Positions 1 through 32,000 of a stretch of 32,000 nt of DNA are shown here, one piece after another. The translations under genes were made by a program, and so were the position numbers. The notes under the pieces are model-generated. The model was not told the origin of the DNA. It did not search any database and was given only the letters and a program-made list of their open reading frames with translations. The stretch's first letter is position 1; the number at the start of each line of letters is the position of its first letter. The stretch covers positions 1,260,001-1,292,000 of the forward strand of contig OY759724.1 in the NCBI GenBank assembly GCA_963662715.1. Reading direction: 5' to 3'. This DNA is from Candidatus Omnitrophota bacterium (GTDB lineage Bacteria > Omnitrophota > Gorgyraeia > Zapsychrales > JANLHA01).

Positions 1-3000
1 CCATGATCGCCCTTTCTGTGCGATAAGGACTAAGGTTTGACATCTTCGGAGAAAGGTTCTGCACCTGCTCTGGAGTCAAGGTGACCAATTCGTCATATTT
101 TGCCGGCGGCTGCACATCGAAAATAACTTCTCCCTGTGCCTGCGTCCTGATTTCAGAAGCAATCTGCGGATTCTCCTTCATTATTTCGGAAATCTTGGAA
201 ACCAAGACAGCTTCTTGCGGCTGGGAAGCGGCGTTCATGGACCCCGTCAAAGCCCTGAGATCGGAATAATTGATATCTTTCGCATCTTTAGCAACAACAG
301 AGGAAACTCTCTCCGGCAGTTCAATCGGAGAAGAAGAAGGCTTTTCTGTTAAGTCATAGGATTTCGCCATGAATTCACTGTTCGGCATTTCAACAAACTT
401 CTTTAAAGCTTTTTCATAATCATGATCCAGGTCCCCCCGGTTTTCCACAACCATAACACCGAGGACCTTCTCCTCTTCAAGCACTCTGAAGACAACCCTT
501 TGATTCCCCAGCCTGAGTTTATTAAGACCTTTTAAGGCCTGGTTGTATTCAAATTTAGACGGTTCCGGGCTCTCGAGGAAAGTTGTAAAGGAATCTGATA
601 ATCTGCTTTGGACTTGATTGAGCTTGGCCTTCCTGACGTCCTTCAACACGCGGACAGTATAGCCTTTAACATTTACCGGCTGAGCGGCTGCGGCCACTTC
701 GGCCGATGAAGAACCTTCAGTTCCTTCCCGTTTAGCGGCAAATTCTTTCTTTGACAGGCCCCAGCGCTGCAGATTATTCATAACCCGATGACGTGTCGAA
801 CCTGTCATGCTCTGTGTGAGGTCAATCAAATCTTCATACAGCTTAACTTCACCCTGGTCTACAGAATCTTGAATTAAATCTTTGATATCATCAAAAGCCG
901 CGCTTTCCTTGGCGTCCACAACAGCGCTGTCCGGAATCGGCATAATCTCCTGCTCCGGAGCGAGACTCTGTTCGGCAACCCGTAAAACCGGTTTAATTTC
1001 AGCATCAAATATTTCCTGTGCTTCTGACTTGGTGATCTTGGCAACGTCCGCCATGCGGGGCAGGGTAATATTAACATTATCGTCCTGCAATTTCACATAG
1101 GCGGCAGCCAAAGCCTGTCCTTTGGGAGAAATCCTTAAGGCATCGCCATACTGAACGACATCCTGAGGTGCTGATATGTAATTCTCTTGAATATAGGTCT
1201 TGGCCCTGGCCATTTCAGATCTGGCTTCAATGGATTTCTTCGGGCTGTTCTGGGTTTCACGGCTGTATGACAAGAGTAGATCAATAAACTTCTTAGGCTC
1301 AGTTCTTAAATCTGTCCGATCCAGTTCCTCCAGGATATCCGCTGCCTTAACGCTGACTCTTCCTCTGCCTTTGGTTAACTGAGCTTTAAACGGTTCGGCC
1401 TTCTTGACCGGACTGGACGTCGTGGCATTAACCACCGCGGATTGTGTCCCGTAATTCTCCGTGAGAATCTGCTGGAATTTAACCCGGTCGCTTGCGCGTA
1501 AAGAAATGATCTCATTACCGAATTTTTCAATCGTCTCAGCATCATCACTGTAAACCTTGACCCTGTTGCCGCGGGAAGTGACGGTAGGCGGAATACTCTG
1601 TTCCACTTTGGCTAATTTATCAACCGTAGGAATGAGTTCTCCGGCTGTCTGACCATCCAAATCAGAATCAACAACATTTGCCGTTAACCGGACCTTAGCA
1701 TCAACATCTATATTCTGATTAATTTCCTGCTCAACGGCATCAACGAAAGCCACAAAATCTTCTTCTTTTAAGTCGCGGTTAATGCCCTTGGGGATAACCA
1801 AATAGAAATTGTCCGGCGGGCCGCGAACCAAGCGCACGCCTCTGAGGTTTTGAGACTTTAATACTTTATTATAGGCTTCTGCCGAGGTCAGGATGACATT
1901 ATTCGCCAGTTCATGATCAGAGAATTCATTAATTACCTTAAATCCGAATTCCCCGTTATCATTTCCGCGCAAAGCATCGACAGTAAACTTGCCGGTGGCT
2001 ATAGATTCTTTAACTTGGGTGTCTAATTCGTCGTAAGGCACATATTTTGAGTCGTTTTTCACCAGGAACATCGCGTCTTGTGCCAATTGAGCTGTAACGA
2101 AATTCCCTAATTCCTCTCGTTTAAACGCCGGATAAGTCGGTTCCAGCTGATCCGTATAAAGCTCAATTCTTGGAGAAAGTTCCGCAGACAGGGCCGCCAC
2201 ATAATTTTCCCTTATAATCTGAGGAAGCGGCTCCATGGTTCCTTCTTCGTGATCAAAGTCTTTTAAACCTTCCTTAAAAGCTGTTCCCATGGCCCCGGCC
2301 TGGTCGCTCTCCTTGGCCAAATTAAGAATAAATTCTCCGCGCCGGATTGCCGCCCCATAGGAAGCGTCCACGCCGGAAGGCAACTGAGGAGCACGCTCAA
2401 CCCCAAAAGAAAGTTTCGGGCTGAACACTTCAAAAGGAGTCCCTGCCTGTTCGATTCTCGCATTAACGCCCGCCGCTGCTAATTTGGCATTAATAACCGT
2501 CAATCTGTCTTCCAGGCCTTTTTCCAAAGACTTGCCTTCGCGATCATAAACCACAAACGTCCCGTCAATATCTTCAAAGAAGGAATTCAACACCGTGTCC
2601 CCTAACTCTTCCTGAACCAGGTCAATCACGGCTTCCCGATGCTCAAGAGCGCTCACGCCAGCAAAATCCACCTTGCTGAATCCAAAGGCCCCGGGAATAA
2701 GCTGTTCAACTTTTTGCTGCGCTTCCTGACGGATAACATCCACGTCTTCCCTGGAAAGGTCTGACGGAAGGATAATACCAACTTCGTCCCCGGAAATTCG
2801 GATGGCCTGGCCGCCATGCTGCCGCATAACCTCATCAACAATCCGAACGCCGGCAGGAATAAGAATATCCACAACTTCTGAAGTATAGCTTTTATCCATA
2901 GCCGCTATCTTCGACATGTCGCCGAAACCAACCCATGCGCGCGGATCCTGCGCTAACTGCTCTTTCACGGCCTGAATGCCTTCCTGACCGGCTTTAACTT

Positions 3001-30000: not shown

Positions 30001-31708
30001 TATCTAAATGTTCTTCTAAATATTCAGCCACTTTTACCTGAATATAAGCCTTAAGAGCTCCAACAGCAAAACCTTTAGCAAAGGCCTTGAGAATATCCCA
30101 AATTCTTGCCCCCACGCCCATATTACTTGTGGTGGCGTAAGGATTTCCTCCTTTACCAAAAATCTTAGTTAAAAATCCTTTTATTTTACTAAATGCAGAT
30201 TTTATCTTAGTAATTATTTTACCCCAAACACTTTGGGCATCCGAGCCAAAACCGGCATAGCCGGCAATAAATCCAGCTGCGGCGCCAATAAGAGCGCCTT
30301 TCAGAGCGCCTTCTTTACCATCCATCAAATACCCTATGGCCGCACCGGCTGCAGCTCCTATTCCGGCATTTATGGCAACAGCACTCCAGTCAACGGAAGA
30401 AGCCGCATCTGCCCCACCTCCATCTCCGATGGCTGACGGGTCAGCACTTGGGTCAGCCGCTCCGATACCCGCCATATAATTTAACCCTATAGAACAAGCA
30501 ATCGTTATAGCCGTGCTTAATATAAAAGCGGTGCTTTCACAATCATCGCCTCCGTCATTAATACAATTTACATAATAAGCCTCCCCAACAGCTGAACCAA
30601 AGGTTGAGGACGCCAAAGAGATAATCACCCCCAGAGGGCCGCCCATAATATAAGCAATAACTATTTGAATGACCATAGAGATAACAGCGGCAAAAATATC
30701 CGATCCGGACATCAAGCCAGGCAAATCATCTGATTTATCGACCCACTTGTTGCCCCAAACAAAGGCTTTCATCGCATCCGAAATAGGCTCATAGGCAATA
30801 TCTTCCTGGCGGTCCAGATTTAAGGCAAGCACAAAACCACTGGCTTTTGCCTTGAAATCACCCCGGCCCATAGAATGCGGTTTCCCTATATCATTATAAT
30901 AAACTTTTTCTGTATCAACTGAGGTAACAGTCACAAAGTGTTCGGAACCGAAATTCGCAACAAACGGAGTCTTCAGATAAAGCATGTCCTCCGCATCAAT
31001 TTTTACGGCCTGAACATTTAAGCCATATCCTCTTGCCACTTCTTCGATGGCAAAAAGCGACGTTTTAAGAAATTTTTCTCCCGGCCTGACAATATCATTC
31101 AACAAATCCACAGAAAGCGTAGCCACAGATATTTCCGAAAGAGAAGTAGGAATACTTTTTTGATCTAATAAATCTTTTAAGGCATAAACACCGCAGTTGA
31201 AAGGATGAATGTTGGGATCGCTGATCCATTCTCTTACAGATTGGACATATTTAGCGTCAATTTTCGTCTTTGAAGAAATAAAAACGCTTTTTTCTCCGGC
31301 CAAAGGGTCCTGAGGATCGGACGTAAGGCCAAGCTTAATCTGCGCATTGTCTTTATTTTCAATCTGTTCCAGCAAATTTCCTACGCCGGAAGCCAATTGA
31401 GCAGAAAGTATCTGTTCTTGAGAAATCTGAGGATTTTGCGGATCTAAAGCAACAACTTGAACCGGAGATGTTTTTGCTCCCCAAAGCACTGCGGGGTTAT
31501 AGTTAAAAGCCCAGCTAACCTGTTCCGGCACAAATATTAACACAATTGCTAAAGCGACTGTCCTGATCCAGGTCTTAAATCGGCTTCTAAAATATTCTTC
31601 TTTAACTTCTTTTTGGACATTAAGATTGGACGCAGAGTCTAACCCGTTGCTAGCAATAACACTAGACACACTTTGTCCACCTTGGTTTTTGTCCAATCTA
31701 AAGTTCAT
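1..31708 (-). CDS. Giant multi-domain membrane-anchored protein, 5' complete and 3' truncated by the window edge (at least 10,569 codons in window)
   Basis: ATG at 31708..31706 follows an in-frame TAA at 31712..31714. Manual translation of this frame is continuously open from 31708 to about 24900. Exact codon checks at more than 20 further sites, down to codon 2..4, stay in the same frame and yield recognisable motifs. The supplied ORF track has no ORF in this frame, consistent with an unterminated ORF. Confidence 0.9.
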   Translation of the reverse strand, partial: MNFRLDKNQGGQSVSSVIASNGLDSASNLNVQKEVKEEYFRSRFKTWIRTVALAIVLIFVPEQVSWAFNYNPAVLWGAKTSPVQVVALDPQNPQISQEQILSAQLASGVGNLLEQIENKDNAQIKLGLTSDPQDPLAGEKSVFISSKTKIDAKYVQSVREWISDPNIHPFNCGVYALKDLLDQKSIPTSLSEISVATLSVDLLNDIVRPGEKFLKTSLFAIEEVARGYGLNVQAVKIDAEDMLYLKTPFVANFGSEHFVTVTSVDTEKVYYNDIGKPHSMGRGDFKAKASGFVLALNLDRQEDIAYEPISDAMKAFVWGNKWVDKSDDLPGLMSGSDIFAAVISMVIQIVIAYIMGGPLGVIISLASSTFGSAVGEAYYVNCINDGGDDCESTAFILSTAITIACSIGLNYMAGIGAADPSADPSAIGDGGGADAASSVDWSAVAINAGIGAAAGAAIGYLMDGKEGALKGALIGAAAGFIAGYAGFGSDAQSVWGKIITKIKSAFSKIKGFLTKIFGKGGNPYATTSNMGVGARIWDILKAFAKGFAVGALKAYIQVKVAEYLEEHLDIDDEVLKSVVVGLVSSLAADIAVGLVVMGLDAAADAMFDEPASRDTDALGNRELVGLSDNSDKSKTNYATNEANAALQDALANNPNMSPEEQANLWQNTFDTAKAGYNSFMVNLGELGFMALQRMAGGLMNYILRSLFKDTFDSSSMASQLIGQFGNLIGQALMAEIWYGGDVGEYHNLDDEDKKNDPKIVNENGDPYKDGDGKAYVENIITGKTPVELLDTDGNGTADIAFVHNSFWGTMVRGLVQTTISVLLAQWLFPEDDFSEKDANGKVKKKEDRFQTFWASTMIFLGSVITEGLFASIAGTFKNSYNAANGSEAAKDGENYKNDKEANEYGSIFWQTVGDSFIRFGQNLVGNWVTAAPVGGSFNSLSDFSTYTDELAHMGGITLDVVLKAQEKREELEKEREEAKEQEGGYNAPDAWYAWGWDDSDAVSDDLKDADKTDEEINIEVGMSFLLMVEDNQIGFWVDNFSQAAAGSAISNIKRSVEYVASAVSSDPGYIKVYRDILGFAYRPIAREDEWGKSGKKEKLLKALEAEGVDVEELSIRELQNGQLDVYFEEGEDSEGTTKSVAKEKVMDAITAILSGEEGDVVFSEAALEGGTDWNKEKKEEVLNALEAEGISLEGLDIKEIEGNLNVSFAGATEETEPLSREQIFDFIISFLKENTSEGITKFVFHKDPFTEASRKILIGENTAETPYYIKYDLVTVDSLWDLVGPGVKTLAAMFGIVGVLPVDWMFDADLVGSVAEFGGLKAEEKTEFWDDEETGKIVTALKEEGVNLNRLHIGELEDGVLSVYFEMEEDTGKEESGNLEQGEEAVKLTKLDVQNLIEALISKDSEGESSPIVAFRSSPFVRGTGSSQHILTKGRAFRQTDNLTGRHYIGFMSYDPESGAYLYDGRKFSKEEAEELGFDPTIMKIRSLGTVVGDEMQGEREVQTDGEVTVAGIDAVVGLAAAGIEGVPSAEVVAKTEETAVDVDAAEGFEIPEEVVVDEEALKTAAAQPEFLTFGTDVLPENEEKILETNETETLNMGGGAGDGYDLTWGLGFEDVGYAVYTQETDGSWSFNSETLTGGLDSWSSLAVPATETTSDSGYEVPEIALTEKPIDTPAYQEKADDIPESSDDSEEVKEREQNKGDADKEQESAKDQKEKKPNISVVRSIQAHRLSEKEREEQGRESYEARVEQMKQDVSALSAEIEGLETKISKLEEEKAYLEQQVESGTKTDEQKQAIEQKINEIESLILSTERDITPKKTRLTTMEASLAEKVTRSQLVDSGPLWEGSGKASWNIAGDLFTTDDDILIGERTTSTSKYQIVKESGEKGVDHLMSTSYVGFKDALNQASLDSIAGYSIRVKNIQAVIQKYGLADIANLSEEERTEKLVALVEELNKTDLVEDTSEPSVLDGLAAEDPEFAEHLASLENLGVSSKSKGPVEMAVDIKAKAERFDQIVTALNEKGVTLKGIAEGKVETADVAAELAELNALGITLEDIKKANADGNVNSTLKKKLLGVEAVAMQAIFAKIFPELSADAVEEITEALDAVDTLGNLEETVMDLAIAEGPIKDLITNVLATTTADSDISSIAVNFFKERMTRQDWETLNDKIALNREIKALAQPEAEEESEPVKTENVNDAISAALSGQGEIAFYGSLDAEEGTTWDEEKKAGVLEALEASGIALDGLDIKEVDGQIKVAFSGASSVKKEERQETAPLKTEDVNDAILAALSGQGEITFYSALEGQEGTAWDEEKKAGVLEALEASGIALDGLDIKEVDGQIKVAFSGASSVNEEAGVPTQAEYDASVKKLYAKYDIAEDTELATVNDMGTNVFSFMGSGFVDETGQGQLRTDFAFGGSEENPIVLQDNMSPVDPGDGVMVRAIAKGNGISYADLTGGILDSHTSPTAFLAKAYYGRIANPDGTLSPELVSGAIFSRFSSKRTAAERLTRIKDNLAAIGVTFESLVAAGGNLSPETDHFAEKSVRLAQILDELEGLGIELEDVFSAAESAEETGSDIETELLAQMGGAENFITREASATGLIAEAKTSIDQATQQLRFDDAAILGSYIHYITKGEEGGEKKEGSVVYDKTIEQGVAELYSTDMLYNEETGGALPYLFLHDKEAGIYEAHPFVIRVDEFVARNPKIAVYGNEDGAHPLNGQMTVNNTIVKINDDNSISYYLRGQEGQMGYTGDSFLVSSLELKNLVNTEAFRTLLQAELGLSTPEEVDELTLEQKLEVAAKIKDLRVKFDEEKIGDIGEEGDFFATKINDPKFTHLWGAGELTKDPKATITLKDREGNKLDSTVLDFERGEGASLFGIDEDGMLKPFVGGRAVQGEVEGQGDGASASVAFFEKILSPQLLAMIPGLGERLVSKGGGTPGPGGLSSEDVEGMAHDNVVMNPKHVTRLSLENGSAVNVYLAGVGGVSGDDIYAAEDYEGNANEEDTNQVKGQGTRGLSFLANPWLTANFGTEENPLQMNQSLSSFYVENRVNSVKRLKDVYKVNAADDVEILDGVASGNLAGIKGLLHVQTKVILGDTQEIKAELEEAGETVTVDEAFTPFVAESIFLANGAISIRDGGNTLTYIDQSQTFLLKQSGALEGHVDESQEVSSAEITSSKGFKQQVRLGYMEDGYQKNVALLVSDFDETVQLKDGNVRVTGRDGRLTLAAMKGLMDERSAAYNDLHITQAMKDDPTQLNIDYIVESVVGKTPDFVINKLRNVGGKVTAFWADDLSLANSYFRVARGDVLGLNPTEIDIDFSEIQEKKAQGESAEEEEAVNFKDAPAEGALLLRPDELSVKQGLVVYRASDLTSLNDEEYLDENKTKAKGLAFAFGQIVTDEATGKKSKVFTGTPTHTPFGVGSIYAIDKSARDANSGIPFLSVRENSKIKVGEGEDAKSTGERITADLFYSDEADGRLAGIKVVEGGRRIGFNLDQLLIGIKMGEIYGQFHLFAAREQMDLNKQYTMEEVAKVFTQKMNLYLAGQINAYARSKVDDLSAPLPDDLEALKNNPTVQKILNKIEKVASQYQKDYAQYKKDLETPGYQEFAMAPVKPKYFISDKDVAAIIAEATDGQMADVEETALREVMAFFNVVVESRGIDGKERESDGAIVYSAQELFNGAQEVLGIMNVNFSGTARFAEKGGVWESFAFVPEDPEKSKAAGRPEFQIDSGGMYSIKNKRTGEDGTVYLTPDQEIAATIDDWTTSGNGRLTFVLGSGGVLTPTTYSLLTSIYNENAYNDENNAGMAENGGVLLPNVVGGVLSVLKKDDPANDESSGYDPNKAFAQKFRVKDILGGGSLAYLDLGDANDDYTFGVEYNGMSVDGIMLASTAEDAGTEIDATLEASLNAMNSLIGTDSYGGGELLINLETGSGVVVLPLYPQMSRVVQILRGGTTNGAVIRDGSYAFVNNSSEKIYRMLTKSGRIAYAFDRRLDNEEMLQDLRGVTGEELDQALNDFQTKRKAGFFSSKSDGRGDNDQIVLKLDADGNIIAMHQIDQSHVFGPKSGDLKQVFLNIGGKQVPVTVSSKKWAEEEEMRSIDLVMDRMQDQSMMSNPVYMPFQLIKKMRKGEKFIVVDENGIQKQFYASEINLYGRQAGSREHVEDNSEDFHEDENLPADVAAQFNGEVVSTVGVITLKDFMSWSGFGGDDFDTYLTDAEGNVLTDLLPLKTKLDVDDIRFSGKDENSKDKKLNDRDFFYATDKLSDDQIGSMLLSQNDYRGMFDVYDTDSNTNNYLAVHFDKDENALMGRIVDGQDVVRLLGSLSNDERKDRKGNVILPEGLLSGDQTFRGFIFEGKKLNTVAQVEGWVEGITAPITIILALTGVGNIVNAAKQAGVKAGLEVGKQITLATIKEGAKQVVKESIKKYGMKVATTLLVENLIHLGMTGEFMNLEQNLKSAILTVGFLKGSAKVATFLTNRGLTLAKVSPRLVAWGGRVAEKYPKLGAFGKALTAEGLKGEAARIAVGLPTVTGITTLGAMANEGISAFVDQRDANWGAAALRGAAKGPALFATVYVASKMFTGKMGGYNPNLGTGSFLSTMKGSFLTRAGNIANLKGLAGIGSMYATWGLSGGLSDYSEAIINEESFSLGDFGRSFNKSGLWGAGLGMAFFVVNSVGMALAERSTLNALKSGQAGVTMPENFAVAAERYGTKLAAEKAAEKVLPSIDAQKSGIAAIQPGTLVKGVLRTTAAGVSGYVGPNYIYKNFISDGKDLSTETRLAAAFLFIAGANILQVKKFFSGGIAKIGAMEAAPVATVSQALKKSLTVPMMSLQGSIGFASAGVLWEATKDTAKGVLNIFGANYGSDAPSNKLKYFGMIEKYFKAVGGGLEGGTTTGPLIHFMMPTAYSSLARLEATNRGIGGYLSLFGRTGKAALKKKPVSMETLLSEGNQFHRLLGVEVGEKGLSGSFLVKQIAKADELSVFLGANDLLTQHVFTPGLMNLAKQTAADTATPAEKYVLNILTGGEGLDSEKGLAHLGELASELSLWTSIALLPAPLRVPPKERDVKTETEAKDATKKTGPPTSAEKNAPSTTPQTTAKKGSSTPQSATETPTVTVMPLGQRSRMRRIVSELKIKAKGFASLFTGRDKKPQVIEMSTLSSYGDLQKVANAMNGRKPVRVFIGGQEIKDIRTILQLTTIWDIRTRKPLLDPTLAKALVTASEITGYELLQAGQPEMFLALNGANVIDAAHARNTKGKAPAQVNYITAQTGAGKSTFLMIAQALYNSFTGRGTLVIVPDALVREQIDFLKKQHGEKLAKQGLKKIVEVKMEDVQSDPAGVLANLENADLVVTSPYTIKLVYGQKADQAQGKLYSNIYNAMKRRVNGKGEGTGRHVILDEAAKLEYMPFLNLSKRTGEVRYVPEVLQGFSTEAFKALDRAIRKLAKNHPDPKQRQTIKNFEDMMHFLSGTDSQGKQWISKPGEKGGRAIASLELVQAWLTEILVSKGQRETMRTVREGFTIHEGVDKLSRNRNKRLSLDKKVLEKYGLKEGYTEADALIAAFNAGIESWGEILPLLYRTYSAPLGEQRSRPVSLMGGEAYDVKVQDLIRPVMDELIQSPIFGRKKGNPKGVEVTQTITRVSFDTIMRDLVKTEGSNVLMISASPLSPTMLKLYGANELVTMSIKDSNAMGSSQVPFRPGENETDKFIAARESNPGKAIVNNIDAISGGKSLAKRALHLFFPDTYLVNEKVVKQIEASVGQLPTHKKSTIIVLDTNGREIVWDRASGETLSQAIKGNRKVDSLKKMHFDNEAPIIITFGPRAVGANFGFKADSIAIVVSTPRSFFEMVRQAIGRPRGIMSFDASGKESIDFANMPTRVLLATEQKGSTGEQGPKAYNDFVVKTLNKNQRMASRIENTRLAVELAMTPKYRAIDDAIMAERSAPGGGRENVIRALELLRTEALTSDSILMNKFKEARATDFVIRDALDSTARFMETKMGRNSEIFALLLPKTQSMLEGLIYGGPTAGESLPYFLAADRVADITKSILSRNEMGDFTQQYPGFENQTTITIGKTASDTFVPLRPQGKVWNGQAVPQTVGELFDAVNISGQEAETYFQTLAAIPGVLSDVSEGVSDLDRQINPDALETFASLATLSGPQEQALLRIFKVMPQGTAPQLDPATGTFGLARRTRDSQGNLAAPLTQDDLRANFVKGMDVAVSLAQNSYISFTHSFTSGLSNFLNLDNNIGELAAAGLIGPGDLSMEDFMSVLYASEDDPLRKQEVLAGVVNDKEVSDFMMEIVQERAKQFSIINSSLGGEEEDKATLSEATSLYSSPSVRTIKKAQEVLGLTGKDKGNQRFRALKIMAGLYAVGTYRDNPVWQKADSMIREQSANAAQISGNEALVESTLTLDDFYSPELIDRVIDRVISADKSVKPSKYVAKVVKKVKAAREKAAVEMRQDDQKRYASELMSLSDLGIGGSEGHALRNGREMRMMTELITNEMYASTGEFNNLRNIFMNRAERSTFMKNAVGQLPLRFMSPNGEGRQILAFIDALGPTLESYDKNSVEYKFYSRLGKLADSVMAGSGNRQMRMVTPYMVNKVAEELNLSEDDTLTLLGVAPRDANGNESTQAKAYKTRLQQAKLRIAVAPQENLSLDSGYIKALNNGQGLTVPDNIADFDQIEVHDRSIDNFIAPVGRGKKQLQESLSVENTVIALLYEHKYNELNASEDSPSANLAERAGEALLADVLPMLNALVAEQRKAEADLKELESGLQKKGNISQEERTELEKRKVVVAEKQNALRAEINRQILAVAGSETGRPVTAQDLASVVTVTGKGLSSKERAARKQRKADSLFSELVENGYIDERGVVQDKFDQLKSSFDLGLSDSLTNAQAAKLYRILQGASTVDYNAEKVVSQLNRISKEMETRSIIWQRDVLPLAKDILGVGQGEALFGDQKLEAELERVSFSLVPGRRMDKKGEAAAEHARGTTDIRTALSGFSSKGQSDSYKKVWEPIHEILGHHFLDTLNNLDKTPQGQKILREQWVQTKRLDRVLGAGATEALFNEGGEVVDGSIFKEGLYSVDVRGQEHYGFEHAGDGSWNELLATMLPFYVLSQSPHYQNSRDQSLVGPLFGQLASGREYNMAMVKDLSFAEMKSAVEASKPNLRLGGQFDAETQAAFNQKIDRLLVAFQEAGVDLQYLIQDELNVANNKQGMYAPGTLANYKEFDDQDSETGGPGSQIYISKEKTRRDFVSHLMALFHDGNHALTEKKETSSPGFVVGRLSQLKDIVEKSGDEELKTLVGNLLDKYQAKGNMKYDHPVYDLIAGIEDSQRTDLSLEQVKTELKHIEQRIQKSRQFDETDESTVAFLNQLQTLQKPGHIVTKEDLHKLAEMPLAKTEFGAAVELFGHVSPFLHIPEEAIRFHSGAGDQDLIALVGKMQSNEELRQFFTQYNLDVGMPLQVGESLVAVQGTPEQKVKLQSSLNKQSDLMVTGVNTIEVISGLQNPLVSQEGDTLKIHAAAVDNPVLGEIVTEIALSGAKSPDQLTETIVQKLQQPEVSAAGAFGVSEIDNIVVALQEEDGARKAESAVGDMVRTFNDSKPKVSSSIQKEQKVEIARSSSLLDKETAQSSPISLFGRKPRENGAAVSPQRTKFRYPLSEIETVFQEDVRKFSQPIEFGVYLIAMDPGGTFSHILVPKSLGVNDVRDLDKNIYGWTRALPAMRKVNGGGTYQFGLEIASHPIISEVEQDDGNRFFLSGKDIVLAQDISMARFFSAEKLHEMFPGRERDSISNEELEQKVIETIKAQKVAGQFSIENGQINGMTDNLYLDGELGIETFSSPRFVYPTAAFNLKTALKNQQADHSLGFAHVHNSFTKAEKESDTLTGVYARALEEYAGPQETSLTLLSPQDMISVLTSQRRFESILTKAGTAEALQKMGTRVTLSGVLAFDVNTRDLMGQRWFDIAEVEKDPQALKDFRKTVLAAYYANKSATKEEDFSGAVKDYWQMMLDLSTEGPLRQSSPILDASSDISSVFTGSKRISTDPSKKKGFVPPKQDDSSVTPPEQSKEVKVSSSIEEASMTPPKPKRQRRNWKTEENPAEISDLRKAEASGRGDESSSSKNSGKDTASSTSKRQRRNWKTEENPAEISDLRKSEASGRGDGAPSGTSPAPVVDAPAALTAIMPYATNYYQSQISQSSDSAGSISQQVMGDISPASVDTQLQKYGSVETTDMTDLSTREVTSSTGLAPPVGMPTIKQPVVSSPVIPVAPVSSGLLPTFQLSSAPKISSGFGSGLTSSPIRDFSIKQRPSTIASLPKQQVVELFNNNDALRAAIRSEAEKDFNELDNAGFIDLFVDSLQNRKIGVDMEISGLESVQLEKTDDLLGKLLYVVTGKTESEAQPISEDPTIQLGYRVGEAGPRETRVEKDLASPEVVSPMLDQVKSKADAKEWLVQQFSVQRLAESLPVMLGEENVKAGVGVHFHHSRQEDYDRETANAMEVSQMSTEYYRNILWGMTTDNVQVSAIPMAPGTSMSVAGHLLAYSDISTGKQYTSKQKKVAGKYHSEERVQYSVKDAASFVKTAAVTARMDELNRRVLEDQGYRAGVKKAVLTNAAVKMKKAGKLSDDQIKQKISALDKVMGDSAFFPADFNVSYTKDAGAFKEVLEASYEVFVQELDLPESATQQAMAAYKQYNATVDQVKAAVTADASQLTDTQKDLAYEVNRWGNVSTLDFVNAINVKKQSIDFSGIQDRMALSQDTASSSISNIALDIEEAKKQFNKAVQGYNKAAETGNRQYDARPIVKEMASANRKVNSLPSGAEKTEISNKANDLNRQMLLEGVSGAPSLINRLGKMISRNEYTPRGQEKALVQEIVDMGADQLRQMEAEYGKAEVADIRRDFNNSVKSMMSAVDITPETKKDVRLSSYEQKNPAMYGWLTQAIDEVQSAPNDERGVLSEGITYVLKGRQVYTDGTKAPHATFMNERNYPELGGLKTGGVDYSGYMRVGKQNGKLVLAVDSGSNTVNSSGQLTNFTRQSGELKRIINDLGIEEVVLVNGRGLEADGTTLESLRAQNYIAGSQKVEASSSPIQIAKPTLEQFNVIKTAVAKSDFFKDKSIVSVRSNAAAGDGKAVYDNGKLNINLNNFSLQTVGAIQNSLGVSLEEAYTEYAAVVYNHERFHREIINNEKRVQNHQPRKAGQYTSGELQGIMNTARRSDNYATQQAVSVIDNIMASSYRYSPEEAEYGEEVFANYIENGGLMTRGETGSGTRDARFILAVNTLMTNLAQEGSIDKAFVANVVDKAETKGTAWDPAQTDTVRFAESPTTYARAIIRETTAVSSPVTIARTASLDKLQEMNPNVSVDNLQNTPNISVELADTVPSKIVNHLARLTSIIPAQEEKETYLESAGLLFGQQGPEGTYNITDVVPLTEYSERTGQHLVPDSQNVAQLIESNAVGEKKLLGVYHTHPGRRVLSGQVPGPSREDRLSADFLIPELADKIVAQPIGIVFEPDMDEIVNMPIAMLDDSAAMTPKDINVFTYVPDANTTKGVITVSKQKGSALLSDIRQSRGSASSSPISAAAMQLLSRTQGQSTWKVITPDAMNAYFKVKAGQEGIQAVKEQLAQDPRAWVGFGDMSKIAAMDKSYTSEVVDILIPAGVRIVDEVMRQHGGQAIRISGDEVGIILPSDLSREDVDVIRQEAQQKVEQLIPGAFGFSKVDFAGVSALEHREAVIDLVQEELGDTVLNSFFEDIDGTFVVYDREGKSLEKGLEDRLTVINAKLAAAGVNARIEQAGTPFEVFSPKLSFGVERAPQLPSGVDASYGAAIRRGEFILNLAKESDQAGAMGTAFKEGLKDFDHEEGTMEPLPQIIRENYVAALSAELSPRIELYTDQLEPTYPAFKREELGNFVTAQLAQDAMFLVKNDSKYVPYDELDTQVKESIATGKFTVDALRGNDNGEFGFKVINEFSDHELANNVILTSAEAYNKVLKSQNLRGVRLVRGPPDNFYLVIPKGINRDLKEEDFVAFVDAVEQEINQNIDVDAKVRLTANVVDSDLDGQTAGELIPTVDKLAKVEQSIPPTVTSRGNRVKVYSDDAETIEKFGNEIISLRASDRVKFQQILTENYGTQSAVVNATTSSPVKKAEPFKAQLTKGRGRVSVKAADILEELDRTDLRTEPKKFIDLLLSYSRETQNSPKKSIEARSEMARAKTYIQENYISAPQDVVQYGDALRISPKGQALAAAYVKLQDDNVNITLPRMADVAKITKSEAQEIFDAEIKPVLRVAEQSLAPEQEIMPIPDSAVVDAKESAAFDDIKDLIQDSVDQGEVKLYEDLIDLTQSMTGSTRHRVMNNLQRWGLSKKEFAAKREGTEGSSSAEVAAAAQPVNVKGYTVRVLKDVRKAKLNQVQSRLSDSFTTFLESPEPSKFEYNQALKGLNKLRLGNQRVVFRVLEEEKVLGVMVVENRGDLDHDYEKALKKFVEMPNSEFMAKSYDLTEKPSSSPIELPERVSSVVAKDAKDINYSDLRALTGSMNAASQPQEAVLVSKISEIMKENPQIASEIRTQAQGEVIFDVQPPAKYDELVTLTPEQVQNLSPKMSNLSPYRTERAIM
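420..661 (-). other. RelE/ParE-like toxin-fold module embedded in the giant protein
   Basis: The translation is YTVRVLKDVRKAKLNQVQSRLSDSFTTFLESPEPSKFEYNQALKGLNKLRLGNQRVVFRVLEEEKVLGVMVVENRGD. It matches the family pattern y.i.......l.kl......i...i..l...P......LkG....yRlRvGdyRviy.v.d....v.vl.v.hR. Confidence 0.6.
2630..2945 (-). other. GGDEF-like / nucleotidyl-cyclase palm domain with variant signature SGDEV
   Basis: AWVGFGDMSKIAAMDKSYTSEVVDILI...GGQAIRISGDEVGIILPS aligns by eye with the GGDEF consensus DiDhFKxiNDxxGHxxGDxxL...RxGGDEFxxxL. SGDEV lies at 2780..2794. Confidence 0.45.
3270..3630 (-). other. JAB/MPN+ (JAMM) metalloprotease domain, RadC-like PSxxD variant
   Basis: The N-terminal ESAGLLFG at about 3590..3612 matches the ExcGlLxG motif. 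It is followed by LLGVYHTHPGRRVLSGQVPGPSREDR, with H-T-H at 3416..3424, Ser at 3374..3376 and Asp at 3365..3367. The loop between HxH and PSxxD is longer than canonical. Confidence 0.7.
4277..4291 (-). other. HExxH motif (HERFH), candidate zincin metalloprotease active site
   Basis: The checked translation is TEYAAVVYNHERFHREIIN. This is a motif only. A chance occurrence in a protein of this size is plausible. Confidence 0.25.
6880..7310 (-). other. S/P/V/G/T-rich low-complexity linker
   Basis: The translation is rich in S, P, V and G, for example KQPVVSSPVIPVAPVSSGLLPTFQLSSAPKISSGFGSGLTSSPIRDF. Confidence 0.55.
7315..7542 (-). repeat. Two 90-nt near-identical copies with a 138-nt (46-aa) in-frame period, encoding KRQRRNWKTEENPAEISDLRK[A/S]EASGRGD
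   Basis: Copy 1 (7315..7404) and copy 2 (7453..7542) differ at about 6 of 90 positions and are separated by a 48-nt diverged spacer. The translation was checked codon by codon. Confidence 0.9.
14190..16080 (-). other. SF2 / SecA-like DEAD-type ATPase module
   Basis: Motif I is AQTGAGKS (15941..15964). Motif II is VILDEAA (15563..15583). A motif III-like LMISASPLSPTMLKLYG lies near 14770..14800 and resembles the SecA GMTGTA..EF..IY pattern. Motif VI is QAIGRPRG (14201..14224). Order and spacing fit a two-RecA-lobe ATPase. Confidence 0.7.
16400..16585 (-). other. Basic K/T/P/S-rich low-complexity linker
   Basis: The translation is PPKERDVKTETEAKDATKKTGPPTSAEKNAPSTTPQTTAKKGSSTPQS. Confidence 0.6.
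16650..18660 (-). other. Second Gly/Ala-rich multi-pass hydrophobic block, immediately N-terminal to the ATPase module
   Basis: Checked translations include GITAPITIILALTGVGNIVNAA (about 18600) and GLWGAGLGMAFFVVNSVGMALA (about 17740). Less rigorous translation gives RLAAAFLFIAGANILQV and IAVGLPTVTGITTLGAMA. The block ends with LSLWTSIALLPAPL (about 16600). Confidence 0.55.
24669..25178 (-). repeat. In-frame tandem duplication, 2 x 255 bp (85 aa), each unit carrying one copy of the ~40-aa W-D-E-E-K-K motif
   Basis: The string gcccatctacctctttaatatccagcccatctaatgcaataccgctggcttcca occurs at 24706 and 24961, a 255-nt period. The core differs at only a few positions. Both units encode WDEEKKAGVLEALEASGIALDGLDIKEVDGQIKVAFSGASSV. 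Confidence 0.9.
26280..26520 (-). other. Charged coiled-coil-like segment
   Basis: The translation reads LSEKEREEQGRESYEARVEQMKQDVSALSAEIEGLETKISKLEEEKAYLEQQVESGTKTDEQKQAIEQKINEIESLIL, with a heptad-like E/K/Q/L pattern. Confidence 0.5.
27605..28441 (-). repeat. Three diverged copies of a ~40-aa protein motif (W-x-x-E-K-K...L-x-A-L-E-A-E-G-[IV]...L-x-I-x-E...V-x-F)
   Basis: Copy a (28322..28441) is WGKSGKKEKLLKALEAEGVDVEELSIRELQNGQLDVYFEE. Copy b (28079..28198) is TDWNKEKKEEVLNALEAEGISLEGLDIKEIEGNLNVSFAG. Copy c (27605..27727) is FWDDEETGKIVTALKEEGVNLNRLHIGELEDGVLSVYFEME. Confidence 0.8.
29081..30706 (-). other. First Gly/Ala-rich multi-pass hydrophobic block, with one soluble insertion
   Basis: Translated hydrophobic segments include IFAAVISMVIQIVIAYIMGGPLGVIISLASSTFG, STAFILSTAITIACSIGLNYMAGIG, WSAVAINAGIGAAAGAAIGYLM, GALIGAAAGFIAGYAGFG, VVVGLVSSLAADIAVGLVVMGL, VRGLVQTTISVLLAQWLF and TFWASTMIFLGSVITEGLFASIAGTF. 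Confidence 0.55.
30809..31231 (-). other. Peptidase C39-like (papain-fold) cysteine peptidase domain
   Basis: HPFNCGVYALKDLL has Cys172 at 31193..31195. FVANFGSEHFVTVTSVD has His257 at 30938..30940. YYNDIG has Asp273 at 30890..30892, 16 residues after the His. Spacing and local context match the C39 Cys/His/Asp pattern (xCGxxAL, HFVVl, xDP). Confidence 0.65.
31511..31570 (-). other. N-terminal signal-anchor transmembrane helix (residues ~47-66, WIRTVALAIVLIFVPEQVSW)
   Basis: A hydrophobic 20-residue stretch follows the basic segment KEEYFRSRFK. The positive-inside rule suggests an N-in orientation. Confidence 0.6.
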
Positions 31709-31718
31709 TTTTTATAAT

Positions 31719-31880
31719 TTAAAAATTAACCAGCTTTAATTTGCAGCATTTGGCCAACTGGCGACCCTGAGTACAAGTGGTAGGAAAAATTTGAAGCTTA
31801 CTAGGTAATGACACAGAATAACAATTATTATATTTTACTTTGAATCCACCTCCGTTTAAATTTGATTTAGTTTTAGACAT
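31719..31880 (-). CDS. Speculative 53-aa basic, Cys-rich small ORF (MSKTKSNLNGGGFKVKYNNCYSVSLPSKLQIFPTTCTQGRQLAKCCKLKLVNF)
   Basis: This is the internal Met of the listed 69-aa ORF and lies downstream of the terminator hairpin. Its stop codon at 31719..31721 is 10 nt from the giant-gene ATG. Against it being real: it is clearly more AT-rich than the giant ORF, it has no convincing RBS, and there is no room for a promoter after the terminator. Confidence 0.25.
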   Translation of the reverse strand: MSKTKSNLNGGGFKVKYNNCYSVSLPSKLQIFPTTCTQGRQLAKCCKLKLVNF

Positions 31881-31890
31881 TGGCTTACCC

Positions 31891-31924
31891 AAAAACAAAA
31901 AAGCCACCAAGTGGTCTTGGTAGC
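31891..31924 (-). terminator. Rho-independent terminator-like hairpin plus T-tract for a minus-strand gene ending beyond or near the right window edge
   Basis: The minus strand reads gctaccaag-acca-cttggtggc, a 9-bp stem with one G-U pair and a 4-nt loop. It is followed by ttttttgttttt. Confidence 0.6.
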
Positions 31925-32000
31925 CCATAAAATTGCTACAAAATTTCAGAAATGCTTTCTGTTAGCAAAAATTTCATTATTCTGTTGGCCCTCTTTTTTG

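What the first reader, a model, noticed from the sequence alone, without database searches (positions are those of the whole stretch)
1..31708. A single open reading frame of at least 31.7 kb fills the window and is invisible in the ORF track
The minus-strand frame starting at ATG 31708 has no TAA, TAG or TGA anywhere I translated. That covers 31708 to about 24900 continuously, a less rigorous pass from there to position 2, and exact codon checks at more than 20 sites. It leaves the window still open at position 2, giving at least 10,569 codons with the C-terminus missing. Genes this long are extremely rare in prokaryotes. The track contains only ORFs of 219 aa or less, none of them in this frame, so an automated reading of the track would call the window ORF-free or recoded.
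Basis: seen in the sequence. Interest (0 to 1): 0.95.

Follow-up and report, generated by a model that had tools for sequence, protein, structure and literature searches.

The report
Omnitrophota giant gene, 5' 31.7 kb
The window really is filled by one unbroken 31.7-kb gene, but it belongs to an already described family of giant membrane-protein genes of the tiny predatory or symbiotic Omnitrophota bacteria, so its size is expected there; the one possibly new thing is a short Ser-Ser-Pro motif that separates the modules in its last third.

Summary
The minus-strand frame from ATG 31708 to position 2 has 10,569 sense codons and no stop. The other five frames have 339-826 stops, so chance is about 1e-290. 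The coding signature is uniform along the frame, and the ORF lister omits it only because it runs off the window.

The protein is almost free of repeats and is not an assembly artefact. Its N-terminus has a TM helix and a C39 cysteine peptidase whose Cys172/His257/Asp273 triad is invariant in 75 relatives and whose fold matches PCAT1, ComA and LahT. This N-terminus has 114 relatives in GTDB species genomes, nearly all Candidatus Omnitrophota MAGs. In 74 of 82 loci the ORF runs open to the end of the fetched DNA. In 58 of 62 loci two T2SSF genes lie directly upstream.

Giant Omnitrophota genes with this architecture are published (Seymour 2023; West-Roberts 2023; Nielsen and Lui 2026, up to 147,155 aa). 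This is therefore a new member of a known kind.

One added lead: the last 3,000 aa are an array of modules (JAB, GGDEF-like, RelE-like, HExxH) separated by a conserved SSP[IV] motif, seen 9 times where about 0.1 is expected. Homology with relatives breaks at these motifs. They may be processing or hinge sites, which is untested.

The parts
2..31708 (-). Giant CDS, 10,569 codons from ATG 31708. The 3' end lies beyond the window.
   Evidence: no in-frame stop and a uniform coding signature; not listed by the ORF tool because it runs off the window.
31901..31926 (-). Intrinsic-terminator-like hairpin plus T-run upstream of the gene, probably ending the upstream T2SSF or leader transcript.
   Evidence: The hairpin is conserved in L004 and L005.
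31709..31797 (-). Conserved leader of about 90 nt immediately 5' of the ATG. A sigma-70-like site lies at 31860-31832.
   Evidence: 67-69% identity to L004, L005 and L003, with blocks of perfect identity; promoter-like site. Rfam: none.
31505..31573 (-). TM helix 1 (aa 46-68), running into the invariant PEQxSWAFNYNP motif (aa 61-72).
   Evidence: Kyte-Doolittle scan. Invariant columns in the 30- and 75-sequence alignments.
30749..31411 (-). C39 cysteine peptidase domain (aa ~100-320) with catalytic Cys172, His257 and Asp273.
   Evidence: Pfam PF03412 at E 5e-7, above the gathering score. The triad is invariant in 75 sequences. AF2 pLDDT is 80-96 here. Foldseek top hits are PCAT1, LahT150, the ComA peptidase domain and the HlyB C39-like domain.
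29849..30721 (-). Gly/Ala-rich membrane block (aa 330-620) with hydrophobic helices at aa 338-356 and 578-596 and a glycine-zipper match.
   Evidence: Kyte-Doolittle. Gly-zipper_YMGG and Rick_17kDa_Anti, both below the gathering score. AF2 predicts long helices.
24662..25180 (-). Two tandem copies (78% identical) of a module of about 85 aa (aa 2177-2349). More diverged copies lie at aa 1095-1231 (window 28016-28426) and aa 1336-1371 (27596-27703). This is the only internal repeat.
   Evidence: Self-BLAST. TRF finds 255 bp x 1.9 at 24661-25147.
16559..18661 (-). Second Gly/Ala-rich, membrane-like block (aa ~4350-5050), followed by a Pro/Thr/Ser linker (aa 5040-5110).
   Evidence: Hydrophobic segments at aa 4356-4374 and 4647-4665. 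Sequence read.
13829..16111 (-). Divergent P-loop ATPase with two RecA-like halves. Motifs: Walker A GAGKST (aa 5252-5257), DEAA (aa ~5380), SAS (aa ~5641), ITFGPRAVGANFGF (aa 5795), QAIGRPRG (aa 5829). About 250 aa are inserted between motifs II and III, the position of the insert in SecA.
   Evidence: Pfam DEAD at E 1e-3, below the gathering score. Motifs are conserved in the 4-sequence alignment. hhalign against E. coli SecA gives E 2.6e-3 over motifs I to II. The PDB profile search hits only ABC Walker A regions. Family unresolved.
2..8905 (-). C-terminal module array (aa 7602 to beyond 10569), punctuated by SSP[IV] at aa 7602, 7991, 8231, 8266, 9051, 9303, 9537, 10098 and 10459. In window coordinates: 8894-8905, 7727-7738, 7007-7018, 6902-6913, 4547-4558, 3791-3802, 3089-3100, 1406-1417, 323-334.
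   Evidence: Conserved in relatives, and homology breaks fall at the motifs.
4277..4291 (-). HExxH motif (HERFH, aa 9140-9144) in module aa 9053-9302. Possible zincin-like metallopeptidase.
   Evidence: Read from the sequence. Conserved as HEKFH in P0041. No Pfam match.
3101..3796 (-). JAB/MPN metalloprotease module (aa 9305-9536) with H9429-x-H9431 and S9445-x-x-D9448.
   Evidence: Pfam Prok-JAB 28.8 bits and JAB 23.5 bits, both above the gathering score. The motif is conserved in P0042.
1418..3094 (-). Module aa 9539-10097 with a degenerate GGDEF-like palm domain (SGDEVG, aa 9639-9644).
   Evidence: Pfam GGDEF at E 2e-3, below the gathering score.
431..619 (-). RelE/ParE-like toxin-fold domain (aa 10364-10426) within module aa 10100-10458.
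   Evidence: phrog_1213 RelE-like toxin at E 1.7e-4. Pfam ParE_toxin at E 0.03.

Best explanation
The window holds the promoter-proximal 31.7 kb (10,569 or more codons) of a genuine single giant gene of a Candidatus Omnitrophota bacterium. It belongs to the published family of giant membrane-protein genes that begin with a TM anchor plus a C39 peptidase and lie directly downstream of a type II secretion / type IV pilus-like locus.

Shown:
- The open frame is continuous and coding throughout.
- The head is a catalytically intact C39 peptidase.
- There are two membrane-like blocks.
- There is a divergent two-lobed P-loop ATPase at aa ~5250-5840.
- The tail is an array of unrelated enzymatic modules (HExxH, JAB, GGDEF-like, RelE-like and unknowns) separated by a conserved SSP[IV] peptide motif.
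- Relatives differ by whole modules, and the differences start at these motifs.

Inferred:
- The protein is inserted in the cell membrane through its N-terminal and central hydrophobic blocks.
- Its export or threading is helped by its own ATPase and the neighbouring secretion machine. The near-total lack of cysteine fits an exported, unfolded-state substrate.
- The C-terminal modules act on or in the host or prey cell during the epibiotic or predatory life of these ultra-small bacteria.
- My preferred sub-hypothesis, at about 30%, is that the SSP[IV] junctions are processing or hinge sites at which the array is cut, or isomerised by the locus-encoded prolyl isomerase, into separately acting effectors.
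For: Continuity and coding:
- No stop in 10,570 codons, against 339-826 stops in the other frames.
- Uniform codon-position bias along the gene.
- Almost no internal repeats.

Family and taxon:
- The N-terminal 700 aa hit 29 proteins, all carrying PF03412. Nearly all named ones are Candidatus Omnitrophica/Omnitrophota MAG proteins.
- There are 114 relatives in GTDB species genomes.
- 74 of 82 loci stay open to the end of the fetched DNA, up to at least 3,800 aa.
- 58 of 62 loci have two T2SSF genes directly upstream.
- The window's 292-bp leader aligns with the closest relatives, L004 and L005.
- L004 and L005 are collinear with aa 1-3522, L001 with aa 4122-7994, P0006 with aa 5126-7157, and P0041 plus P0040 with aa 8152-10569.
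- P0003, an Omnitrophica MAG protein, has the same C39 head and the same ATPase in one ORF.

C39 domain:
- Pfam match above the gathering score.
- Invariant Cys/His/Asp.
- Foldseek to PCAT1, LahT, ComA and the HlyB C39-like domain, with TM-score 0.68-0.74 on the target.

Modules:
- JAB above the gathering score; GGDEF-like and ParE-like weak; RelE-like phrog match.

SSP motif:
- 10 copies where 0.27 are expected, 9 of them in the last 2,970 aa.
- Codons differ between copies, so selection is on the peptide.
- Conserved in L001 while its flanks diverge.
- 7, 4, 10, 5 and 7 copies in related array fragments, against 0.15 or fewer expected.
- Absent from 211,000 aa of N-terminal parts of relatives: 8 observed, 4.5 expected.
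- Homology blocks end at the motifs.

Cysteine:
- 4 Cys in 10,569 aa, none after residue 405.

Literature describing the same architecture and locus.
Against: - The organism is inferred only from homologs. The window has no marker gene, and only 292 bp lie outside the ORF.
- The T2SS-like neighbourhood cannot be seen in the window itself.
- The ATPase could not be assigned. Pfam SecA_DEAD did not hit, DEAD is below threshold, the PDB profile matches only ABC Walker A regions, and the AF2 model was unusable at pLDDT 41.
- TM segments come from a crude hydropathy scan.
- No glycosyl-hydrolase, glycosyltransferase, dockerin or adhesin domains were found, although these underlie the published cell-wall-degradation hypothesis.
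- Nothing shows that the protein is made, exported or cleaved. C39 peptidases cut after Gly-Gly, not at Ser-Ser-Pro. Some SSP copies are only 15-45 aa apart, which fits a linker or hinge as well as a cleavage site.
- aa 3522-4122 and aa 7994-8152 are not bridged by any single relative.
Confidence: 0.85

Rival explanations
1. The giant protein functions as one uncleaved, membrane-anchored surface 'coat' or adhesion scaffold. The SSP[IV] motifs are only flexible or modified (for example O-glycosylated or phosphorylated) linkers between domains, and the C39 and JAB peptidases act on other substrates.
For: - Published proposals describe a coat or adhesin role (PMC10066038). West-Roberts note that the C39 domain may cleave other substrates.
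- Some SSP copies are only 15-45 aa apart, and their upstream flanks are enriched in Ser, Thr and Ala, as linkers are.
- C39 specificity is for Gly-Gly (established knowledge; structural neighbours).
Against: - The tail modules (JAB, GGDEF-like, RelE-like) are typical cytoplasmic enzymes or toxins, not adhesion domains.
- No adhesin, Ig, dockerin or lectin domains were found.
- The strict conservation of four residues at junctions goes beyond what a passive linker needs.
Confidence: 0.35
2. The long ORF is an assembly artefact: a chimera of several genes, or collapsed or expanded repeats that happen to stay in frame.
For: It comes from an uncultured source, and no reads are available. No single relative bridges aa 3522-4122 or aa 7994-8152.
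Against: - A chance open frame has a probability of about 1e-290.
- The only repeat is a 255-bp tandem of 1.9 copies.
- Codon bias is uniform.
- Collinear homologs occur in independent assemblies.
- P0003 links the C39 head and the ATPase in one ORF.
- 74 of 82 related loci are likewise open-ended.
Confidence: 0.03
3. It is a 'polyvalent protein' or other cargo of a phage, plasmid or conjugative element (Iyer et al. 2017 type) rather than a chromosomal Omnitrophota gene.
For: A faint LPD38 (large polyvalent protein-associated domain) match at E 8e-3, below threshold. The protein has a multi-enzyme, module-shuffled tail with peptidases, and a RelE-like domain.
Against: - No tblastn match in 50,697 phage or 72,556 plasmid records.
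- No match in IMG/VR.
- Relatives sit in MAG contigs of up to 2 Mb, next to a conserved T2SS-like locus.
- No MuF, SNF2, methylase or ParB-type polyvalent hallmarks were found.
Confidence: 0.03

Closest known systems
Giant genes of Candidatus Omnitrophota with an N-terminal C39 peptidase ('Archaeovorin'-type and related; West-Roberts et al. 2023, bioRxiv 10.1101/2023.11.21.568195; Seymour et al. 2023, PMC10066038; Nielsen and Lui 2026, bioRxiv 10.64898/2026.06.07.730766; type example is the 39,678-aa protein of Velamenicoccus archaeovorus LiM)
   Same: - A single ORF of tens of kb.
- An N-terminal TM or signal segment followed by a C39 peptidase.
- Several TM regions.
- A divergent DEAD/SecA-like ATPase preceded by a membrane block.
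- Few recognisable domains, and poor sequence conservation outside the head.
- A T2SS/T4P-like locus directly upstream in relatives.
- Homologs are almost exclusively from Omnitrophota MAGs.
   Different: - The visible 10.6 kAA contain none of the glycosyltransferase, glycoside-hydrolase, methyltransferase or NUDIX set that defines Archaeovorins, and no dockerin or TSP3 repeats.
- Pfam SecA_DEAD itself does not score.
- Only 5 proteins among 1.84 billion representatives match the ATPase region, so this is a rare sub-lineage.
- The tail is an SSP[IV]-delimited array with JAB, GGDEF-like, RelE-like and HExxH modules. I did not find this junction motif mentioned in the two giant-gene preprints that I searched for such terms.
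Peptidase-containing ABC transporters (PCAT1, ComA, LahT; C39 double-glycine proteases) and the C39-like domain of HlyB
   Same: The N-terminal domain has the C39 fold with an intact Cys-His-Asp triad and is followed by membrane helices. The best PDB fold matches are PCAT1, LahT150 and ComA. The best PDB sequence-profile hits of the distant ATPase are ABC exporter Walker A regions.
   Different: - About 5,000 aa separate the peptidase from the ATPase.
- There is no ABC signature (LSGGQ).
- The ATPase has a second RecA-like lobe with helicase-type motifs V and VI.
- With the positive-inside rule, the C39 domain lies after TM1, so it may face outwards.
- No double-glycine leader substrates are evident.
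Polyvalent proteins of phages and conjugative elements, and multi-effector polymorphic toxins (Iyer, Burroughs, Aravind)
   Same: One huge polypeptide strings together unrelated enzymatic or toxin modules and peptidases. Modules are swapped between relatives. Proteolytic release has been proposed.
   Different: The context is chromosomal and next to a T2SS-like locus. There is no match in phage, plasmid or viral collections. Hallmark polyvalent domains are absent, and the protein has a large membrane-embedded N-terminal half.

Membership tests
Omnitrophota giant genes (Seymour 2023; West-Roberts 2023; Nielsen and Lui 2026) | A single uninterrupted ORF longer than 20 kb (Seymour) or a product of at least 10 kAA (Nielsen and Lui). 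West-Roberts use more than 30,000 aa. | tested here: met
   At least 31,707 nt and 10,569 aa, still open at the window edge. The 30,000-aa threshold cannot be judged because the 3' end is missing.
Omnitrophota giant genes (Seymour 2023; West-Roberts 2023; Nielsen and Lui 2026) | A C39 peptidase domain close to the N-terminus, next to a signal or TM segment. | tested here: met
   PF03412 at E 5e-7, above the gathering score. TM helix at aa 46-68. Invariant Cys172/His257/Asp273. Foldseek to PCAT1, LahT and ComA.
Omnitrophota giant genes (Seymour 2023; West-Roberts 2023; Nielsen and Lui 2026) | Numerous transmembrane regions. | tested here: inconclusive
   Six or seven strongly hydrophobic 19-mers (aa 50, 338, 578, 1282, 4356, 4647) and two Gly/Ala-rich blocks, from a Kyte-Doolittle scan only. 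No dedicated TM predictor was available.
Omnitrophota giant genes (Seymour 2023; West-Roberts 2023; Nielsen and Lui 2026) | A divergent SecA_DEAD / SecA preprotein-binding-like ATPase. | tested here: inconclusive
   Walker A, DEAA, SAS and motifs V/VI are present and conserved. Pfam DEAD scores E 1e-3, below threshold, and SecA_DEAD is not reported. The PDB profile search hits only ABC Walker A regions. AF2 failed.
Omnitrophota giant genes (Seymour 2023; West-Roberts 2023; Nielsen and Lui 2026) | A type II secretion / type IV pilus-like locus immediately upstream. | not testable with these tools
   Only 292 bp lie upstream in the window. In relatives, 58 of 62 loci have two T2SSF genes directly upstream. 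The window's leader aligns with that of L004 and L005, which have them.
Omnitrophota giant genes (Seymour 2023; West-Roberts 2023; Nielsen and Lui 2026) | Encoded in an Omnitrophota genome. | tested here: met
   Indirect. Named homologs of the head, ATPase and tail are almost all Candidatus Omnitrophota/Omnitrophica MAG proteins. The window has no marker gene.
Archaeovorin subtype (West-Roberts 2023) | Consistent presence of glycosyltransferases, methyltransferases, glycoside hydrolases, peptidases, SAM methylases and NUDIX hydrolases. | tested here: not met
   Pfam, NCBIfam, PHROGs and PADLOC scans of all 10,569 aa find only C39, JAB, weak DEAD, weak GGDEF and a RelE-like domain. The unseen 3' part might still carry the others.
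Dockerin-type subtype (West-Roberts 2023) | [quoted passage not shown] | tested here: not met
   No such Pfam hits. The protein is essentially non-repetitive.
Peptidase-containing ABC transporters (PCAT) | C39 peptidase, a six-helix ABC exporter TM domain and an ABC nucleotide-binding domain with the LSGGQ signature, in about 700 aa. | tested here: not met
   Only the C39 fold matches. No ABC_tran or ABC_membrane Pfam hit. No LSGGQ between Walker A and Walker B (sequence). The ATPase lies 5,000 aa away.
JAB/JAMM metalloproteases | The JAMM motif E...HxH...S-x-x-D coordinating zinc. | tested here: met
   Prok-JAB 28.8 bits and JAB 23.5 bits, both above the gathering score. H9429-T-H9431 and S9445-R-E-D9448 are present, with 13 instead of 7 residues between them. 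The motif is conserved in P0042. Activity was not tested.
Polyvalent proteins of mobile elements | Encoded by a phage or conjugative element, with LPD domains plus MuF, SNF2, methylase or similar modules. | tested here: not met
   Only a faint LPD38 hit (E 8e-3, 16.6 bits against a cut-off of 27). No phage, plasmid or IMG/VR matches.

The most novel reading that the evidence does not exclude
The conserved [A/I/V/S]-[S/V/A]-S-S-P-[I/V/L] peptide that punctuates the C-terminal third of this protein, and the tails of related Omnitrophota giants, is the so-far-unknown signal that partitions giant proteins into functional units. It would act either as a proteolytic processing site or as a prolyl-isomerase-dependent hinge used during export. 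It would also mark the junctions at which effector-like modules (JAB, GGDEF, RelE-like, metallopeptidase, methyltransferase) are swapped between lineages. The giant gene would then be a membrane-anchored 'effector polyprotein' with a cassette-exchange grammar.
Probability: 0.25. Interest if true: 0.75.

Novelty: new member of a known kind. Interest (0 to 1): 0.38.

Why it matters
The giant ORF adds one more divergent member to a family already known to be common in Omnitrophota. It also shows why ORF tracks and MAG annotation under-call such genes. They run off contigs, or are split by frameshifts and scaffold gaps, as seen in L001, L003 and L084.

The more useful outcome is the SSP[IV] junction motif. 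West-Roberts et al. state that missing information on cleavage points blocks the dissection of giant proteins. A conserved, array-specific four-residue motif that coincides with homology breakpoints gives a concrete hypothesis for where the units begin and end. It can be tested by proteomics and with peptides, and it gives a practical rule for cutting these proteins into pieces for structure prediction.

Tried and rejected
- The ATPase-region profile found nothing in GTDB genomes, IMG/VR or JGI metagenomes. It found only 5 proteins among 1.84 billion representatives.
- tblastn of aa 5100-8000 against phages and plasmids gave no match.
- phmmer of the whole protein against PDB gave 0 hits.
- The profile of the ATPase against PDB gave only Walker A-level ABC hits.
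- AF2 of the ATPase with a 4-sequence alignment gave pLDDT 41 and was not used for fold search.
- NCBIfam, PHROGs and PADLOC added only a RelE-like hit and weak JAB/E1-E2 hits.
- Rfam found nothing in the window or in the L005 leader.
- I considered a DNA-level role for the SSP motif (a recombination site) and rejected it, because codon choice differs between copies.
- I considered compositional bias as the cause of the motif and rejected it, because the N-terminal 7,560 aa here and 211,000 aa of relatives' N-terminal parts show no enrichment.
- I considered recoding or an alternative genetic code. It is unnecessary, because there is no in-frame TGA, TAA or TAG at all.
Full report
**1. The observation**

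- Six-frame translation shows that minus-strand frame 1 is open for 10,570 codons, from the stop at + 31712-31714 to window position 2. The other five frames contain 339-826 stops.
- The first start codon is ATG at + 31708, giving 10,569 aa, and the frame is still open at the window edge.
- From base composition, the chance of such a run is about 1e-290.
- Each 1,000-codon block has the same coding signature: GC1 0.50-0.58, GC2 0.36-0.42, purine at position 1 in 63-73% of codons, and no in-frame stops against 44-96 in each of the two shifted frames.
- The mechanical ORF list tops out at 219 aa, because it omits ORFs that run off the sequence. That is the whole reason the gene is 'invisible', and no recoding is involved.

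**2. Not an artefact**

- The protein is almost free of internal repeats. Self-comparison finds only one module of about 85 aa, at aa 1095-1231, 1336-1371 and 2177-2349. TRF finds one 255-bp tandem of 1.9 copies at 24661-25147.
- Independent assemblies carry collinear homologs:
  - L004 and L005 (GTDB MAG contigs) match aa 1-1087 at 60%, then aa 1433-1561 and aa 2543-3522.
  - L001 (ENA) matches aa 4122-7994 at 39-58%.
  - P0006 matches aa 5126-7157.
  - P0041 and P0040 match aa 8152-9195, aa 9196-9296 and aa 10078-10569.
  - P0003, a 4,475-aa partial protein of an Omnitrophica MAG, has both the N-terminal head and the ATPase in one ORF.
- Read mapping could not be done.

**3. Anatomy**

- Upstream of the ATG (31709-32000) there is a terminator-like hairpin at 31926-31901 and a promoter-like site at 31860-31832. 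A leader of about 90 nt just before the ATG is conserved with L004, L005 and L003. Rfam finds nothing there.
- The protein starts with a basic stretch, a TM helix (aa 46-68) and an invariant PEQxSWAFNYNP motif.
- A C39 cysteine peptidase follows.
  - Pfam PF03412 scores E 5e-7, above the gathering score.
  - Cys172, His257 and Asp273 are invariant in 75 sequences.
  - The AF2 model has pLDDT 80-96 over aa 100-320.
  - The best Foldseek matches are PCAT1, the LahT150 double-glycine protease, the ComA peptidase domain and the HlyB C39-like domain, with TM-score 0.68-0.74 on the target.
- A Gly/Ala-rich membrane block (aa 330-620) follows. After it come about 3,700 aa with no recognisable domain, and then a second membrane-like block (aa ~4350-5050) and a Pro/Thr/Ser linker.
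- At aa 5200-5960 lies a P-loop ATPase with Walker A GAGKST, DEAA, SAS, ITFGPRAVGANFGF and QAIGRPRG. These motifs are conserved in three relatives.
  - An insert of about 250 aa lies between motifs II and III, where SecA carries its preprotein-binding domain (established knowledge).
  - The family assignment stays open. Pfam DEAD is sub-threshold. The PDB profile search gives only ABC Walker A hits. AF2 failed.
- The whole protein has no PDB sequence match.
- It has only four cysteines (172, 382, 390, 405), so none in the last 10,164 residues.

**4. The tail**

- From aa 7602 onward the protein is punctuated by SSP[IV], at aa 7602, 7991, 8231, 8266, 9051, 9303, 9537, 10098 and 10459. One further copy lies at aa 1409. 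That makes 10 observed where 0.27 are expected.
- Codons differ among the copies, so the constraint is on the peptide.
- SSP is the most significantly recurrent tripeptide in the tail, but not in the first 7,560 aa. It is also not enriched in 211,000 aa of N-terminal parts of 67 relatives, with 8 observed against 4.5 expected.
- The segments between the motifs include:
  - an HExxH module (aa 9053-9302; HERFH is conserved as HEKFH in P0041);
  - a JAB/MPN metalloprotease (aa 9305-9536; above the Pfam gathering scores; the HxH...SxxD motif is conserved in P0042);
  - a degenerate GGDEF-like module (aa 9539-10097; E 2e-3);
  - a module with a RelE/ParE-like domain (aa 10364-10426; phrog_1213 at E 1.7e-4; ParE_toxin at E 0.03);
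  - several modules with no match.
- The motif is conserved in relatives while its flanks diverge (L001). Related tail fragments are packed with it:
  - P0040 has 7 copies and P0041 has 4.
  - Three pieces of L084 have 10, 5 and 7 copies, against 0.04-0.13 expected. Those pieces are separated only by scaffold N-runs, so they are probably one gene.
- Homology blocks end at the motifs.
  - P0041 carries about 290 extra aa, and homology resumes exactly at SSP (giant aa 9051, P0041 residue 1186).
  - P0040 shares aa 9196-9296. It then has about 1,190 aa of other modules (methyltransferases, GGDEF) where this protein has JAB plus the GGDEF-like module. Homology resumes about 20 aa before the SSPV at aa 10098.
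  - P0042 shares the JAB module up to SSSPI and then diverges.
- Three positions read SSS[IV] here (aa 7577, 8043, 8728). At two of them (7577 and 8728) the aligned relatives have SSP[IV].

**5. Who and where**

- The head (aa 1-700) finds 29 proteins, all with PF03412. The named ones are almost all 'Candidatus Omnitrophica/Omnitrophota bacterium'.
- A scan of GTDB species genomes finds 114 relatives, of which 80 were kept, again almost all Omnitrophota MAGs. Some carry the placeholder label 'uncultured Planctomycetales', and there is one Elusimicrobia and one Caldithrix bin.
- In 74 of 82 loci the homologous ORF is open to the end of the DNA fetched, up to at least 3,800 aa.
- In 58 of 62 loci with enough upstream sequence, two T2SSF genes, a 147-aa ORF and an ORF of about 1,300 aa lie directly upstream.
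- The ATPase and tail homologs that carry names are also Omnitrophota, apart from one 'Deltaproteobacteria' bin.
- Phage, plasmid, IMG/VR and JGI metagenome searches with the central region were empty.

**6. Comparison with what is known**

- Giant ORFs longer than 20 kb were reported in 77 of 116 Velamenicoccia genomes and in many other Omnitrophota genomes. [quoted passage not shown]
- West-Roberts et al. describe the same layout. It has an N-terminal C39 near a signal peptide, many TM regions and divergent SecA_DEAD domains. A conserved T2SS-like locus with gspD, gspE and gspF, pilin genes and a Rotamase_2 prolyl isomerase lies upstream. They suggest autoproteolysis but state that cleavage points are unknown.
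- Nielsen and Lui list 5,761 proteins of at least 10 kAA, the longest 147,155 aa. [quoted passage not shown] They do not mention cleavage, linkers or motifs.
- The present gene is therefore a new member of a known kind. It does not fit the Archaeovorin or Dockerin subtypes on the domains visible here.

**7. How it most likely works**

- Shown: a single translated unit with a catalytically competent C39 head, membrane blocks, an ATPase and a modular tail.
- Inferred:
  - The protein is anchored in the cytoplasmic membrane.
  - Its own ATPase and the adjacent secretion or pilus machine help to thread parts of it outward. The lack of Cys fits transport in an unfolded state.
  - The tail supplies enzymatic or toxin-like activities for interaction with the host or prey. 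Aravind's group reads Omnitrophota giants in a similar way, as batteries of effectors (PMC12419801).
- Whether the tail is cut at the SSP junctions (by the C39, JAB, HExxH or another protease), or the Ser-Pro bond is a hinge for the locus-encoded prolyl isomerase, or the motif is a modified linker, is open. I put processing or hinge function at about 25-30%.

**8. Verdict**

- Novelty: new member of a known kind.
- Interest: about 0.38. The gene itself is ordinary for its phylum, and the score is raised somewhat by the SSP junction motif and the module-swapping pattern.

Noticed in passing
window 2-8905 (aa 7602-10569); also L001, L084, P0040, P0041, P0042: The SSP[IVL] peptide motif recurs at module junctions only in the C-terminal arrays of this and related Omnitrophota giant proteins. 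Homology with relatives breaks at these motifs, so modules look swapped like cassettes.
   Followed up: yes
window 31709-32000; L004:9354-10000; L005:9297-10000: The non-coding leader of the giant gene is conserved. It has a terminator-like hairpin (31926-31901) and about 90 nt just before the ATG with blocks of perfect identity. In L004 and L005 a near-consensus promoter (TTGCAT-17-TATAAT) lies about 330 nt upstream of the ATG, followed by a conserved RNA of about 150 nt that ends at the hairpin. This could be an attenuator or small RNA. There is no Rfam match.
   Followed up: partly
window, whole CDS (Cys codons at aa 172, 382, 390, 405): Cysteine is extremely depleted: 4 Cys in 10,569 aa, one of them the C39 nucleophile, and none in the last 10,164 residues. 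Relatives are also low, with a median of 0.16%.
   Followed up: partly
window 7340-7402 and 7478-7540 (aa 8057-8077 and 8103-8123): An exact 21-aa duplicate, KRQRRNWKTEENPAEISDLRK, occurs 46 aa apart within a Ser/Pro-rich, probably disordered segment (aa 7993-8265). It is a basic, NLS-like patch of unknown meaning.
   Followed up: no
window 24662-25180, 27596-27703, 28016-28426: A small module of about 85 aa (consensus ...EEKKAGVLEALEASGIALDGLDIKEVDGQIKVAFSG...) is present in about five copies. The two youngest are 78% identical in protein, and the underlying 255-bp DNA tandem scores 90% matches. These regions have no match in the closest relatives, L004 and L005. No family match.
   Followed up: partly
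L001 (ENA ERZ21869602), L003 (JGI 3300009782) and L084 (JAQUNN010000001.1): Related giant genes are annotated as several shorter genes because of frame shifts (L001 goes through frames 2, 3, 2; L003 has a shift at about aa 550, whereas the upstream genes compared are 100% identical in L005, whose ORF stays open) or 100-N scaffold gaps (L084). Databases therefore under-count and mislabel these genes, for example as 'M24 family metallopeptidase, partial' or 'diguanylate cyclase, partial'.
   Followed up: partly
P0041 / P0040 (NCBI MAG TPA, Candidatus Omnitrophota): P0041 ends exactly where P0040 begins relative to this protein (aa 9195 and 9196). They are probably two contig fragments of one giant gene of the same MAG.
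   Followed up: no
window 13829-16111 (aa 5200-5960): The ATPase region is extraordinarily isolated. A full HMMER scan of 1.84 billion representative proteins returned only 5 matches, although the N-terminal C39 head has more than 100 relatives.
   Followed up: yes
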